A stretch of DNA of 64,000 nt from Saccostrea echinata (taxonomy: Eukaryota), in contig NW_026889785.1 of assembly GCF_033153115.1 (NCBI RefSeq), forward strand, positions 7,068,001 through 7,132,000, read 5' to 3'. The translations under genes were made by a program, and so were the position numbers. Positions 23,700 to 35,334 of the stretch are shown here, in pieces. Below the pieces are notes generated by a model. The model did no database searches. It saw nothing but the letters and a program-made list of their open reading frames with translations, and was not told where the DNA came from. Positions within the stretch are counted from its first letter, which is position 1, and each line of letters begins with the position of its first letter.

Positions 23700-23990
23700 T
23701 ACCTGCACAAAGACTAATGTCTCTCGGTCTGTCCTTACATGTAAGAGGAGGTCCTAACCTATATGTGGTGCTGATAGCACCTATTTTCAGAGAACACAGT
23801 TGTTGATAGTGTTCCGAATAACTTTGATTGTATTCTCAATTTGAATTTCAGGAATTCCTGTAAATTTAAAACAAGTCTTTCGAGAGTATTGCTAATCAAG
23901 TCGAGACTCAAAATCAGATACCTGTTTTCTAAGATCACGAACTTCAAATGCAACTTTTTCTATTATGCTATTATTGAAAGCTGGTTTGCC
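23700..23990 (-). pseudogene. LINE ORF1-like fragment (coiled coil followed by RRM-like region)
   Basis: EVRDLRKQVSDFESRLD*QYSRKTCFKFTGIPE..ENT...RLGPP...RPRDI resembles the EQYSRRxxLxxxGIPE motif. Confidence 0.6.
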
Positions 23991-23999
23991 TGATGTAAT

Positions 24000-25810
24000 T
24001 AAGCATAAAAATAGGTATGTCAAGACAATTGAATATTTTTTCATTATTTCTCACCTTCTCCATAACCATCCTGAAATCATCATCCTTGTCTACAGCCACA
24101 AAATGTTTGTTTTTTCTGTCATGAAAGTCATTCTTTGGAATTTTATCATCCTTGCCTGTTGTAAAATCATAGTTGAATTCTGTTACCTCGTAATTTCCAC
24201 GAAATATTTCTTCAGCATTCTCGGATTAGTGAAATGTTGATACTCGTCTTCTGTTAAACTGTCTCCATGACAGATTTCTGAAGAAGTCTGTACCAAGTTG
24301 GTAACATACTGAACGGTACAAGGGGACTGTAATTATACAGTAGGAGCATCCAGGTATTTCCCTTCTACCATTTTTACACACTTGAGTTAAATTTTTTCTT
24401 CCAATTACCAACATTTCATGGGCTGAAAAAGAATGTCTTACTGTAAATGATCCTTTAATAAATAAAACTCGCAATTGTTTTGGATCAGCTCTTTATTGTT
24501 TCTCAATAATTCTGATATACAATCAGTTGATTCATCCATTCTATAATAAACTAAACCCATCCTACATTCTCCCATTATTTGACAAGAACTCCATAAAGCA
24601 TCTCCAGAAGGCAATGCATATTTCATTCCGGATAAAAATCTCTGCTCCGCTAACAAATTCTGTAGTTTAGCAGTCTTCGTCGCGTGTTTGGAATCCATTG
24701 TACCAAGAAGGATAACTGGTTTTCCCCCCCCATAAAGTGTTTCTTTCGATTTCATACCCATGATAAATTTTACTGTTAACCATAATGACTGTAGCGCTGA
24801 TAATGGACAATGGTTCTTTGCTGCCGTCTATAAAAATTAACGTTGCGGTGTAGAAGCTCTTTGTTGCTGACGACGTCTTTTGTCTTTTCTGTTATTTTAT
24901 CCAAAGCTTCATGAAATTCAAATTCCGGAGTGAAAACTTCTGATATGTATCCTTTTTAAAAAATTATCATAGCCCTACGTATTTTATTAATATTATCATA
25001 ATATGAAGAAATATTCTGAGCCAGTAATGTCAAACTAAACGTTTTCTTTGCATTATTCTGTACATCGGCTATATGTTTAGCAACTTTTACAGCCTTTTCA
25101 AGTTTTCCCGAGTGCCGTTGATAAGTTGTTCACTTTGTATCGATTGTCTTCGATTTGAAATTCTTTGAGACTTAGTTAGGTTCAGTTAGATTCTGGTCTC
25201 GTCTAATGATGCTGTAAACCCGACTGGCAACCATTTGTAAATCCTCCGAGGTGGCAGTTCGAATATGGATTAAGAAAAATCTCTAATGAAAAATAAAGGA
25301 GCACTGCGTCCTGAACCTGTAAATTTTTGAAATTGTTTTTAATTAAATGTGGAGAGCTTTTTGATTTCGTATTCCATTTCAATGTCCATCGTCTTAAGCA
25401 ATTTAAATAAAGGATGCCTCTTGTATCTCAAACAGACGTCCTACAATTTCTGCCCGTTGTCAAAACTTCAAAGATTTTAAGACATAAATATTTTTAAAAA
25501 TGTTATAAGATGAAAGTAAAAATATCTTCCCTCTCGTCTCATTGAGTAAAAATGATATAAAACACATAAAAGATAGCTCTACAAGTAATAAGAATTCATT
25601 CCCAAAAAAGGAATTATTTCAAAATGGAAATTAGAGTCACAAGTATCTCTAAAAAATGAAAGAAGATTTTCCCTGTCAGAAGGAATATGTTGTGACCAAA
25701 CACATACCAATCATGGTTTTCGTTATGGTAATATAACTCCAGAGTGAACAAAAGAACAGTAGGATGATGGGAAGATTTGTCTTGTCGAGTATTTATACTA
25801 TTTCTTCATC
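24000..25810 (-). pseudogene. env-like (F-protein-like fusion glycoprotein) ORF of a Ty3/Gypsy element, decayed
   Basis: GRSAPLFFI.DF..IF(G)TATSEDLQMVASRV at 25311-25220 resembles a cleavage site followed by a fusion peptide. Further on are a heptad-like region, CISELLRNNKELIQNNCEFYLL and GCSYCIITVP. It lies directly 3' of an integrase. Confidence 0.65.
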
Positions 25811-25869
25811 CTCTGTATTTTTGTAAGAATAATGTTTATTTTAAAAGTTTGTCTCCAAGAAAAGTAGCA

Positions 25870-26200
25870 AAGTCCTTGGGGACTTCTGTTGGTTTCATAT
25901 GTAATTGACAACAGGGAATTCAGGGCTATACCCAAATACAATCTCATATAGAGAATATCCAAGACTCGTGTTCACAACAGATGATAAACAATTTTCCCAA
26001 TTACTTTTATCTGGAGATACGTAAGGTGTTAGTCTCTAAGCAAGTGTCGCATGTATTTTTTCACAAGCTCCAAGGCAATGGTGTGCAAAGGCTGGAGTTA
26101 ATTGTTAGGCAATATGTAGCATCCTGCAGAGTTCAGACGTAACTTTGGATATAAACTCACTTCATATTCGCATATTTGTCGTTAATAGAAAGGTTGACAT
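25870..26200 (-). pseudogene. Ty3/Gypsy integrase core fragment
   Basis: SEFISKVTSELCRMLHIA*QLTPAFAHHCLGACE..HATLA*RLTPY...NWENCLSSVV..LGYSLYEIVFGYSPEFP. Confidence 0.8.
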
Positions 26201-27249
26201 TTCAAACTTGTAGGGGTACGTGTACTAGGGGAATCACCTAGATTCATCGCGTATTACGTCATCAGTTTTTGTGACGACAAGGTTTCTATGCGTTCTCTTA
26301 ACTTGTAGAGTGTCGTCTACACGTCGTAAGTACAAACTTGTATCTTTTACAACAAAAATAATCTAACTGATGAGTGGATATATTCTTGTGAAACATTAAA
26401 TAGATTTCCAAACTTTATTTGCATGCAGATTGGTAAGAAATTAACCATTTATTTGAAGTGAAGTAAATTCCTGTACACGATTATATCCTACACGTTATGA
26501 AATCTCAACTGATATATTACAAAAACGGGTACGTGTACGTGTAGTTATATAACACGTACCCGTACACGTTTTAAATCTCAACCTCTCTATTTTCACTGTT
26601 TATACATGTACACGTAGGTGTCGCTGCGCTGCAAATGAGGTCCATTACGCACTTTTCAAACTCTTTGGTTCTGTAACGTATAAATCAATATTAATTTGAT
26701 CGAAATATTATATTCAAATCAAGTTAAAAAAAAATCGCGAGAGTAAATAAGCCGACACAGAAGCCAAATTTAATCAATACAAATTACTGCGCATAGAAAG
26801 TGCGTGATAACCTAGGGAGATGGAACACAGTCCTACTCCTATAAATCAATCTAAACTAGAATACTAATTATTTGTACGAAACATTTCTCTGGGTACGAAA
26901 AACTATCTCTAATTGTCTTTCAGCATTTATGCTTGTCAGTGGTTCATGTAGTCATTTTATTGTGTTTGGTTTAGATTGACTCCTTAGTATCTTTTTGTTT
27001 TGGTTCATTTATCGATCCAGGTGTTTGAGAAAATATGGCATGTCCAGTAGACTCATGCTGTACAAGTGTGAGCATATCTGATATGCGGTTTGCTATGGCC
27101 CTTTGTAGCATTGTTTTTGTTACAAATTTGTTCGCCCTGGTGGAATTTGATTTCTCTGTCATTGGTATTTTTACGTTGACGATACACTTTAAAAACCCTG
27201 TATTAGGACGACGGATGGCTAGTGAATGTTTGAGCTGATAGCCTTAGCT

Positions 27250-27620
27250 GTTGGCTGCAGTTGGTTTCACTTGCCATTTGTTGTACTCTTGAAATGTTCT
27301 ACTTAGATATTCGTCCAAATGTTGTTTAATGTCAAGGAAATCTAAGTCAAAGGTATTCTTGCCATTGCCGAATCGTTCAAGAAAAGTCGTTTCCAGGTTC
27401 ACAAGACTGTTCTTTGCAGTTGGCACCATTGGTGGACAATGTCACTCAGGTAAAACACAAATGGCCCGGTAATGTCAGTCAAGTGAAACGCAAAGCTTTT
27501 CCAGAATTTGTCGCTCGAGAAGGCATGCAGGGTACACAACTGCATGTAAACAGTTACTTTTTCTTCCAGAGTTTTTTGAGAGATTTACGGAGACATAATC
27601 TCTCCAGTGGATAACTTCTT
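27250..27620 (-). pseudogene. Probable Gypsy gag fragment
   Basis: YMQLCTLH...FAFHLTD...LETTFLERFG...LDEYLSR. Same orientation as, and upstream of, the integrase and env remnants. Confidence 0.45.
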
Positions 27621-28810
27621 AATTTCCTGTATTGTGGTTATTTTAAAACTACGCGGCTAGGATAAGGCTGTCCGTAACATATCAAACTGTTTCAACTCTA
27701 GTAACTTCTCTAAACTACCTATATATGACGTCATAATAGCATATGACGTCAAGTCACATCATACTTGAGCTGACATGACGGGGAAAGTGTCATAACTTTT
27801 ACATTCCTTTCACATGACATGCAGGATTTCTTAGCGTTGTTGTTTGATTCAAGTGTCTGGATTGTTCTTTAAGCTTAAGTGTGCTGTTATGATGTTGAAC
27901 ATTTGCAATTTAATATCATTATTCCTTTAACTTGTCCGATATACATATATTCGAACAATAAAAAAAAACTGAATGTGAATCGCTCCGCCTTACACGTCGG
28001 TGGACTGAGTTAGAACTTATGAATCGTGTATATATTTGACTGGCACAAGTGATTAATAAGGATAAATCAAAGATATTCTGTGTTAATCTACTACAGAGGT
28101 ATATCCTCTTACTGAATTTTACTGGGGGATTGTATGTAATTTATCCTATTTTGTATAACTTGCGATAAAGAGTGGAAAATGCCCCCTTGTATGCGGGTAA
28201 GTTGAATTTCTCGTGGAATATTTTCTCAAGAAGTAAAATTCAGACTTGCCCCCAGCACTTTATATGTACCAAAGATCACGATGAAATGACTTATATGACA
28301 ATTTTTTCTCAACAATGTTTTGCACTTGTGCCGATACGATTTTTATGAACCATTTAGGAATTTATAAGTGTCCGTCACGTGATCAACAAAGTAATGTGAC
28401 ATCGCAAAAATGCATTATTATAATACCTGATTACACTCTCATCACAAGTTGACTGCAAATTCATACATAGATTACAAATTGAAATTAAAATCTAGCTTAA
28501 AATAAAATGTTTATATTTTAATGCATATTGAGCCTTCGGACAGCCGTTAGCAGTTAGGTGCGTAGTTGTTGTTAATGGGGATACTGCGGTTGATGCTGTT
28601 CTAGGACATTTCTGAACTTACGATCGTCTGATGACTGATGATTCTGGCTTGATGTTGAACGTAAACCTCTTGTCTTTTCCCTTAATTCTATAACACTCGG
28701 AATTCTAGAGTTACCGACTTGGTGTCGTTTCTGCATCACTTCCCTAATTTCTACTTTGACTTTAAAAAATCTTCAATGAGTTAAGAAATTCAGTGTAGGT
28801 AGGTTAGAGG

Positions 28811-34098: not shown

Positions 34099-34640
34099 TT
34101 ACCTACCATATTCATGCAGTTTCTTTATTACAGCTGCAGGTGGAAGAGAGCTGTATTCCTCACCTGATGTACTCCTCAAGACTCCCAGCGTTTCCTGTTC
34201 GTTGAGTGATTGCTCCCTGATCTTAAGAAGTGTAAACTTCCGACCATATATCTCTTCCTGATTCACAACAAGCTCACCCGTGTTGTTTATTTTGTTGGTA
34301 TCAAAAACTTTTGGGGCAATACAAATACCAATATCGTAGATACCATCGTAAATTTTTTGCTGTAGGGTTTTTCTGATTTTTTTGGGTGGTATTTGATGAG
34401 GCACAGCTAGTCCACGTACTCTGAGGTACTTTCTCCTGACTCTTTGTATAATGTCCCTACCACTTACAATTTTTTGTGGATTGAATATCTGTGTATTAAT
34501 ACCATTTTCAGAAGCAAACTGCTTGAGAATTTGACCAGCATTTGAAGGAAAAATTCCTGCCTTGTTAGTAATATAGTATTTTTCCCTAATGCTGCCCAGT
34601 TCACCATTGTTTCCTTTTAATTCAAGTAGAAAAGCTTTTT
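34099..34640 (-). pseudogene. Unclassified TE-derived coding fragment
   Basis: SNAGQILKQF...GIYDIGICIAPK...IYGRKFTLLKIRE. Bounded by an intron donor and truncated. Confidence 0.35.
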
Positions 34641-34905
34641 GTCAAATGCTGCAATAGTGTCTGTATAGCCCCCTGCTGTGTCCGTATAGCCCCCATGAAT
34701 AGAGGTCTTTGTACCCACAAATATATTCGGATAGCCCTCATAAATAAAACGGGGGAGGGTCTAACTTTAAAAAGGCGGAGCAAATAAACGTCAGGGCAGT
34801 TGGAGAGGGGTATTATTAATATTTATTAATAAGTCTAAGTTAAGAATGCAAATAGTAATTTATTAAAGGAAAAGTTTTAGAAAACAAGAACGAGAAAAAA
34901 AAAAC

Positions 34906-35334
34906 ATGGTGGAATTGTATTCTGTAGATATTGGAAACAACAGAGATGTAAGAATTTTAAAAGAAGAGAGCAAAATGTCTATCGTTATACGAGAATTATC
35001 TGATAAGCAAGAAGAAAATCCAGTAGGAATTGTGTTAAGCATTCATCAGTGGAATAACTTAAATTTGTTGGTAGGATTTGCAACGGAGGCATTACATCAG
35101 CTGATAAATGAAGAAAGTGAAATAAACTTTTTTCGTCGATTAGGTGATGATACGTACATCCAAGTGTACTCGCCATACAAATGTGTAACTTTAAGAAAAT
35201 TTGTTTCAGTTCCATACTATAACCCACATCTACCGAAACCATATTGCCCCACATATAACCAGGTTAAACTCTGTCCTACTAAAGACGGTATTAGTTTACG
35301 AGTTTTAGAGTGGAATCATGAGGATCATCAATGA
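34906..35334 (+). CDS. Tandem PC4-like ssDNA-binding protein (Polinton/Maverick-associated type), probable C-terminal frameshift
   Basis: Two PC4-like units: IGNNRDV...IVIRE...GIVLSIHQWNNL and LGDDTYIQVYSPYKCVTLRKF...PTKDGISLRVLEW. The ORF is intronless. Confidence 0.7.
   Translation: MVELYSVDIGNNRDVRILKEESKMSIVIRELSDKQEENPVGIVLSIHQWNNLNLLVGFATEALHQLINEESEINFFRRLGDDTYIQVYSPYKCVTLRKFVSVPYYNPHLPKPYCPTYNQVKLCPTKDGISLRVLEWNHEDHQ

What the first reader, a model, noticed from the sequence alone, without database searches (positions are those of the whole stretch)
24000..27620. Envelope-bearing Ty3/Gypsy (endogenous retrovirus-like) remnant in an oyster
Seen: manual minus-strand translation across frameshifts gives the order gag-like (27.6-27.25 kb), integrase (26.2-25.9 kb), then an extra ~1.8-kb ORF that the ORF track shows only as short fragments. 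That ORF has a basic residue followed by a hydrophobic segment (GR/SAPLFFI.DF..IF(G)TATSEDL), a heptad-like region, and Cys clusters (C..LLRNNKELIQNNCEF, GCSYCIITVP). Known: errantivirus env and baculovirus F proteins have a cleavage site followed by a fusion peptide with an FGT-like motif. Inference: this was a potentially infectious, env-carrying lineage in a bivalve, which bears on horizontal spread of retroelements in seawater. No transmembrane anchor is visible because the ORF is cut by a LINE-ORF1-like fragment.
Basis: partly seen in the sequence, partly recalled or inferred. Interest (0 to 1): 0.72.

Follow-up and report, generated by a model that had tools for sequence, protein, structure and literature searches.

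The report
Recombinase transposon carrying three fusion genes
The envelope-like gene in this window is a broken piece of a 39-kb jumping DNA element that carries a likely recombinase and three intact predicted membrane-fusion genes, which would let a DNA transposon pass between cells; it does not belong to the retrotransposon scraps lying beside it.

Summary
The gag, integrase and envelope-like pieces are real, but they are not one element. The gag and integrase scraps come from two different Gypsy families (pol 29% alike), neither with an F-type env. The F-like piece is 79.5% identical to one of three intact class I fusion-protein genes inside a 38.6-kb element on contig C28. That element has no gag or pol. 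It encodes a probably spliced tyrosine-recombinase-like + SET protein, three F proteins and a separate gene for the cytoplasmic tail domain of Gypsy env. It also has palindromic tandem repeats and sharp att-like ends. Seven gene-less copies with both ends lie elsewhere in the genome (six 98-100% alike at the left end), so the family moved recently. The window holds the element's 17-bp palindrome and the start of its tail gene just upstream of the F piece. Intact gag-pol-env Gypsy elements with a distant (23-27%) F env also exist in this genome; that is a published kind. A recombinase DNA element with fusogens was not found in ten paper searches. Excision circles, expression and fusion activity are not shown.

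The parts
27267..27645 (-). gag fragment of Gypsy family A (gag-pol-ORF3; ORF3 is an env lacking its F ectodomain)
   Evidence: 65-69% nt to 6 loci (L218-L223), 45% aa, E 7e-24; ORF3 vs env termini
25816..26163 (-). integrase fragment of Gypsy family B, cut inside the pol frame; family has no env
   Evidence: 80% nt to L215 and L216, E 5e-42; longest sense ORF after pol 47-66 aa in 3 of 3 elements
25670..25806 (-). upstream region and start of the recombinase element's 200-aa 'tail' gene
   Evidence: 72% nt to C28:594595-594730; gene identified
25459..25671 (-). one unit of the element's 557-bp tandem repeat, with its 17-bp palindrome at 25534
   Evidence: 74-78% nt to 12 units on C28; palindrome 25 times in the element, 0 in L041 and L046, once in the 64-kb window
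24004..25460 (-). broken copy of the element's fusion gene F2 (codons 69-578 of 633; no signal peptide, no anchor)
   Evidence: 79.5% nt over 1535 columns, 10 frameshifting gaps; substitutions at codon positions 1/2/3 = 57/51/95, p 2e-4
23790..23975 (-). fragment of an unrelated dispersed repeat ORF just beyond the end of the F piece
   Evidence: 40 matches in the genome, most in 200-340-aa frames
27651..28563 (.). later insertion of a high-copy ~915-bp repeat; not an LTR of the remnant
   Evidence: 2297 candidates; absent from sister copies L110 and L113

Best explanation
The window holds a decayed three-part chimera, and its envelope-like part comes from a 38.6-kb DNA element that likely moves by tyrosine-recombinase excision and re-insertion and likely uses its three predicted fusion proteins to pass its DNA from cell to cell. 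Shown: the origin of each window piece; the element's limits, genes and repeats; recent dispersal of gene-less copies; F genes beside the recombinase gene in three diverged copies. Inferred: (1) the recombinase binds the 9-bp inverted arms at the two ends, excises a circle, and inserts it where the target shares 2-4 bases with the end of the 9-base core; (2) recombination between tandem repeats deletes the genes and yields non-autonomous copies, and one such deletion gave the window piece; (3) the F module was taken from, or shares an ancestor with, long Gypsy env and was split into ectodomain-anchor genes and a tail gene; (4) F proteins fuse cells or circle-bearing membrane vesicles, no capsid gene being seen, which would give the element a soma-to-germline or animal-to-animal route; (5) the SETD8-like domain marks the element's own chromatin.
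For: Window piece 79.5% nt to F2 against 23-27% aa between F2 and 3 Gypsy envs tested; no nucleotide match of 20 env loci to the piece. F1-F3 are intact (622-635 aa), 31-47% alike, with furin-type site, fusion-peptide motif, cysteines and anchor. Atlas Baculo_F clusters score 0.95; Foldseek RSV F E 1e-9. No gag or pol ORF in C28:575-635 kb. Eleven left and nine right ends, eight copies with both. Left 330 nt 98.2-100% in 7 of 8 comparisons. A flank match of 2-4 nt to the core in 8 of 9 left junctions. The C29 copy sits cleanly inside a common repeat. Recombinase: SET E 7e-11, Phage_int_SAM_5 E 0.002; R, K, R, H, Y motifs kept in relatives; every non-SET Foldseek hit listed is a tyrosine recombinase; 230-286-residue VIA alignments to them at Z 5.8-8.0, rmsd 7-16. 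F next to the recombinase gene also at C36:5563-5573 kb (80-91% nt) and C33 (69-85%; F3 residues 21-41). Tail gene 27.2 bits against a best 7.2 among 500 shuffles. F1-F3 plus 8 database proteins form a clade apart from all 10 Gypsy envs, support 1.0. An older copy of the same deletion (L108/L109) lacks the integrase.
Against: Only one gene-bearing copy was found. Seven of 9 other recombinase loci have no F in the stretches fetched, though all are truncated pieces. All seven recently moved full copies lack F genes, so F is not needed in cis. One raw oligo-dT RNA run gave only 7 partial reads under 95% identity on F3 and the recombinase. Both structure models are weak (pLDDT 59 and 44). The recombinase Foldseek E-values are only 0.01-0.09, and the second-motif histidine position reads D or M. 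F1-F3 themselves have no Pfam Baculo_F hit (3 of 13 clade members do). The atlas recognition score was low. Linkage in other species was not shown.
Confidence: 0.6

Rival explanations
1. The element is a large Crypton- or Starship-like transposon and the F genes are cargo: captured from an errantivirus, triplicated, and kept for a host benefit such as blocking receptors or fusing cells, not for the element's own spread.
For: Gene-less copies moved recently without F. Only one intact F cluster. The tail gene points to capture from Gypsy env.
Against: F sits beside the recombinase in copies 69-91% alike on three contigs. Three paralogues 31-47% alike and the split tail gene are all intact inside a polymorphic mobile unit. 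The third-position excess between element lineages points to selection while the element was moving.
Confidence: 0.2
2. The element is the integrated, reduced genome or a satellite of an enveloped DNA virus; capsid and replication proteins come from a helper or from a fuller copy absent from this assembly.
For: Integrase, several glycoproteins, a small membrane protein and interspersed palindromic repeats recall virus genomes (baculovirus hr repeats, recalled). The best viral fold match is an 801-aa abalone herpesvirus protein, E 1e-24. Polinton-like genes lie 14 kb from a recombinase fragment on C6.
Against: The C28 copy has both ends and no capsid, polymerase or helicase ORF. No relative in viral contigs in 3 scans. 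No other fetched copy adds genes.
Confidence: 0.15
3. One reading: the window is one decayed gag-pol-env Gypsy provirus and the F piece is its env.
For: The order gag, integrase, F on one strand. The integrase-F junction recurs in nine other copies on C5 and C36. The gag family descends from env-bearing elements.
Against: gag and integrase come from families 29% alike in pol, and family A pol does not match the window integrase. The integrase family has no env. The element's repeat, palindrome and tail gene lie between integrase and F. No LTRs. The junction copies share one F truncation point and lie on two contigs, as segmental duplicates would.
Confidence: 0.05

Closest known systems
Errantiviruses with F-type env (Chary and Hayashi, PMC13524379)
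   Same: F-type ectodomain with furin site and fusion peptide; mollusc hosts listed. The genome's 800-850-aa env elements (L076-L093) fit this kind.
   Different: The window's F clade lies in an element with no gag, RT or LTR, has three paralogues of 620-635 aa, and carries the tail domain as a separate gene.
Crypton DNA transposons (Kojima and Jurka, PMC3212892; PMC13465315)
   Same: Tyrosine-recombinase-like gene with probable introns; short target microhomology rather than a duplication; proposed circular intermediate.
   Different: 38.6 kb, fused SETD8-like domain, no DUF3504 or GCR1_C hit, 9-bp inverted arms, fusogen genes, long repeat arrays.
Starship elements (as summarised in PMC13465315)
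   Same: Large recombinase-mobilised unit with cargo genes and cargo-less derivatives.
   Different: Animal host, no DUF3435 captain, recombinase gene internal, cargo is a membrane-fusion module.
Archaeal Fsx1 integrated mobile elements (PMC9259645)
   Same: A fusogen inside a XerC/D-recombinase mobile element, proposed to spread by cell fusion.
   Different: Class II fusexin in archaea against class I F in an animal; an analogy only. Pleolipoviruses and fusogen-bearing nematode Mavericks are further analogies, recalled and not checked.

Membership tests
Errantivirus (window locus) | gag, pol and env from one element | tested here: not met
   three sources
Errantivirus (window locus) | flanking LTRs | tested here: not met
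   no long dispersed direct repeat in 15-36 kb; the 915-bp repeat is a later insertion
Errantivirus (window locus) | env groups with Gypsy envs | tested here: not met
   separate clade, FastTree support 1.0 on 88 sequences, no outgroup; same topology in an IQ-TREE run that timed out before support values
Errantivirus (dispersed loci L074-L093) | gag, pol, F-type env in order | tested here: met
   14 of 20 with zinc-knuckle gag and pol of 900 aa or more, 4 with broken pol, 2 with none; terminal direct repeats seen in 6 of 20 within the 10-kb stretches; Baculo_F in 1 of 4 envs scanned
Class I F-type fusion protein | hydrophobic N-terminus, furin site, fusion peptide, cysteines, C-terminal anchor | tested here: met
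   intact F1-F3; the window copy lacks both ends
Class I F-type fusion protein | paramyxovirus/baculovirus F fold | tested here: met
   Foldseek RSV F E 1e-9, baculovirus F E 3e-13, on a model of pLDDT 59
Class I F-type fusion protein | membrane fusion activity | not testable with these tools
   bench test
Crypton | tyrosine recombinase | tested here: met
   moderate only: motifs, weak Pfam SAM-like hit and fold matches on a poor model
Crypton | 4-6-bp terminal direct repeats, no inverted termini | tested here: inconclusive
   2-4-nt microhomology in 8 of 9 junctions, but 9-bp inverted arms are present
Crypton | DUF3504 or GCR1_C domain of described groups | tested here: not met
   no such Pfam hit in the protein or 6 relatives
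Crypton | circular intermediate | tested here: inconclusive
   not among the 15 joints shown; 468 not shown; contigs only
Starship | DUF3435 captain as first gene | tested here: not met
Enveloped DNA virus | capsid and replication genes | tested here: inconclusive
   no such ORF of 70 aa or more in the C28 copy; short spliced genes are not excluded

The most novel reading that the evidence does not exclude
An unrecognised class of animal mobile DNA: capsid-less, recombinase-integrated elements that travel as circles in membrane vesicles or through fused cells, using class I fusogens taken from errantiviruses. It would be an animal counterpart of archaeal fusogen-bearing elements, able to move between oysters and to mobilise gene-less satellites.
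Probability: 0.3. Interest if true: 0.92.

Novelty: new variant of a known kind. Interest (0 to 1): 0.76.

Why it matters
How DNA transposons cross cell and species boundaries in aquatic animals is an open question. A recently active recombinase element that keeps three intact fusogen genes and no visible capsid gene offers a testable route. It also shows F-type env passing between RNA-based and DNA-based elements in molluscs, with a structural match in a mollusc herpesvirus. The recombinase-SET protein resembles an unnamed 197-member, mostly chordate cluster, so the family may be widespread and mis-annotated as host methyltransferases.

Tried and rejected
Pfam on 12 window fragments: nothing useful. 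PDB sequence searches with F2 and the recombinase domain: no real hit. PHROGs: none. Viral contigs: 0 in 3 scans. Metagenome contigs: 0 for F; 4 short recombinase-SET loci of 1.5-7 kb without F, too short to test linkage. Tail-gene homologue search: none. Sequencing runs: no RNA holder listed. Contigs of runs X1 and X2 cover F3 and the recombinase at mostly 95-99% identity, but their RNA nature is a guess and one contig spans the predicted introns. Small shares in X3-X10, including a seawater run, were not used as evidence. Circle junction not seen in the rows shown. IQ-TREE timed out. The 915-bp repeat as an LTR: rejected. A domesticated host locus on C28: rejected once shared ends were found. 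Earlier scan notes: 0 by words, 0 by sequence, 4 by place, none on this element.

Full report
Observation. A search of the own genome with window 24150-25500 gave 25 matches, all on C36, C5 and C28. Of the 20 loci fetched, one held a long open frame: G000:C28:603334-605235, here called F2. The window piece is 79.5% identical to F2 over 1535 columns, with 20 gaps of which 10 shift the frame. It covers codons 69-578 of 633 and so lacks the signal peptide and the anchor.

The protein. F2 and two paralogues within 17 kb (F1, F3) have a hydrophobic N-terminus, a furin-type site at residues 113-123, a fusion-peptide motif, conserved cysteines and an anchor near 580-615. Pfam does not call them. The ESM Atlas gives Baculo_F clusters at 0.95, with a low recognition score. 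A model of pLDDT 59 matches pneumovirus and paramyxovirus F (best E 1e-9) and, among viral models, an abalone herpesvirus protein (E 1e-24) and baculovirus F (E 3e-13). A profile finds 3590 representatives at E 0.001. The F-type fold is supported; activity is untested.

Where the intact genes lie. C28:575-635 kb has no gag or pol ORF. It has tandem arrays of 184, 557, 154, 929 and 374 bp and an 899-aa frame with a SET domain (E 7e-11) and a weak integrase SAM-like hit. Upstream frames and GT-AG sites suggest two further exons (by eye). The SET domain is closest to SETD8/KMT5A. Recombinase-type R, K, R, H, Y positions are kept in relatives. On a poor model (pLDDT 44) every non-SET Foldseek hit listed is a tyrosine recombinase, at E 0.01-0.09. 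VIA aligns 230-286 residues to such enzymes at Z 5.8-8.0 with high rmsd; two short helical matches rank above them. The call is moderately supported. A 200-aa gene between F1 and F2 is homologous to the cytoplasmic tail of long Gypsy envs (27.2 bits; best of 500 shuffles 7.2).

It is a mobile unit. The left end at C28:587421 and the right end at 626023 are shared with dispersed loci. I found 11 left ends and 9 right ends; 8 copies have both. Seven of these, of 2.7-30.2 kb, hold only repeats (three also a piece of the recombinase upstream region). The left 330 nt are 98.2-100% like C28 in 7 of 8 comparisons and 92.9% in one. The left end begins CTTGACCTTT; the right end carries the inverted arm AAAGGTCAA followed by a 9-base core. 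The left flank matches the end of the core by 2-4 bases in 8 of 9 junctions and by 9 in one. In C25 the core lies inverted at the left end. The C29 copy interrupts a common repeat cleanly. This fits recombinase insertion of a circle, the model proposed for Cryptons (PMC3212892, passages). The circle itself was not seen. Of 42 recombinase matches only C28 is whole. Of 9 other recombinase loci fetched, two keep F sequence in the same arrangement: C36:5563-5573 kb (80-91% nt) and C33 (69-85%). Seven truncated ones do not.

The window is a chimera. Between integrase and F lie the start of the tail gene and one 557-bp repeat unit. The unit carries a 17-bp palindrome found 25 times in the element, not in the two flanking stretches, and once in the whole window, at 25534. 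The integrase piece is 80% identical to a Gypsy family with no env after pol in 3 of 3 elements, and it stops inside pol at 25816. The gag piece is 65-69% identical to another family, 29% alike in pol, whose third ORF is an env without ectodomain. The integrase-F junction recurs in nine other copies, all on C5 and C36. An older copy of the same deletion lacks the integrase. Substitutions between F2 and the window favour third positions (57/51/95, p 2e-4), so the two lineages diverged partly under selection; 3 of 7 F2 comparisons reached p 0.05 or less clearly, and none of 4 short F3 ones did.

F3 finds 70 matches. I fetched 20 high-scoring dispersed loci: 14 have gag, long pol and env, 4 a broken pol, 2 none; 6 show terminal direct repeats of 96-100%. 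Their envs are 23-27% like F2 (3 tested). In a tree of 88 sequences (F1-F3, 10 of these envs, and the 75 of P0001-P0079 with 480 aa or more) F1-F3 and 8 database proteins form a clade apart, support 1.0, midpoint-rooted. Env-bearing Gypsy elements in molluscs are described in PMC13524379 (abstract, passages, first parts of sections 6 and 9 read; supplements not read, and they may list these families).

Other hosts. The recombinase is 95% like a protein named Saccostrea cucullata and 39% like one named Ostrea edulis, and scores 0.98 to a 197-member mostly chordate cluster. One short-F cluster includes a protein named Bonamia ostreae on a 2.4-kb contig, probably host-derived (inference). Linkage outside this genome was not shown. 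Contigs of two other runs cover F3 and the recombinase; one raw RNA run shows almost nothing.

Literature. Ten searches (listings) returned no paper on a recombinase-SET element with fusogens. Passages of PMC13465315, PMC6431247, PMC9259645 and PMC13030845 were read. Repbase and subscription papers were not searchable. Baculovirus hr repeats, pleolipoviruses, fusogen-bearing Mavericks and the host of Bonamia are recalled, not checked.

Verdict. The finding as stated is an ordinary decayed chimera next to a known kind of element. Followed up, it exposes a recently active recombinase DNA element with an intact three-gene fusion module. The origin of the window piece is about 0.9 sure, recombinase-driven movement about 0.8, and use of F for spread about 0.6.

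Noticed in passing
window 52138-55704 (+): A second, unrelated Gypsy pol broken into three frames (RVT_1 E 1e-28).
   Followed up: partly
window 43846-44487 (+): RT/RNase H scrap of another LTR element.
   Followed up: no
L218-L220, L222 (for example L218:2062-3078): Young Gypsy family (LTRs 99-100%) whose open 339-aa third ORF (263 aa in L220) is an env that has lost the F ectodomain but keeps the termini and tail domain; this suggests the tail domain has a role of its own.
   Followed up: partly
L117 (G000:C6:9455053-9462015): Polinton-like gene block (A32-type ATPase E 2e-6; capsid labels recalled) 14 kb from a recombinase-SET fragment with the element's right end.
   Followed up: partly
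top hit: An 801-aa uncharacterised abalone herpesvirus protein is the best viral fold match; ranid herpesvirus proteins also match. It may be the unknown fusogen of mollusc herpesviruses.
   Followed up: no
L224-L227: Four copies of the integrase-F junction are 92-93% like the window in the integrase but 83% in the repeat and F piece; unexplained.
   Followed up: no
L185-L190: Isolated 660-855-bp pieces of the element's repeats lie on six other contigs without the ends, five of them about 855 bp from the 929-bp array; possibly a miniature mobile form.
   Followed up: no
window 34099-35334 (-), 59076-59693 (-), 3033-3572 (+): Further open frames of 155-205 aa, not examined.
   Followed up: no
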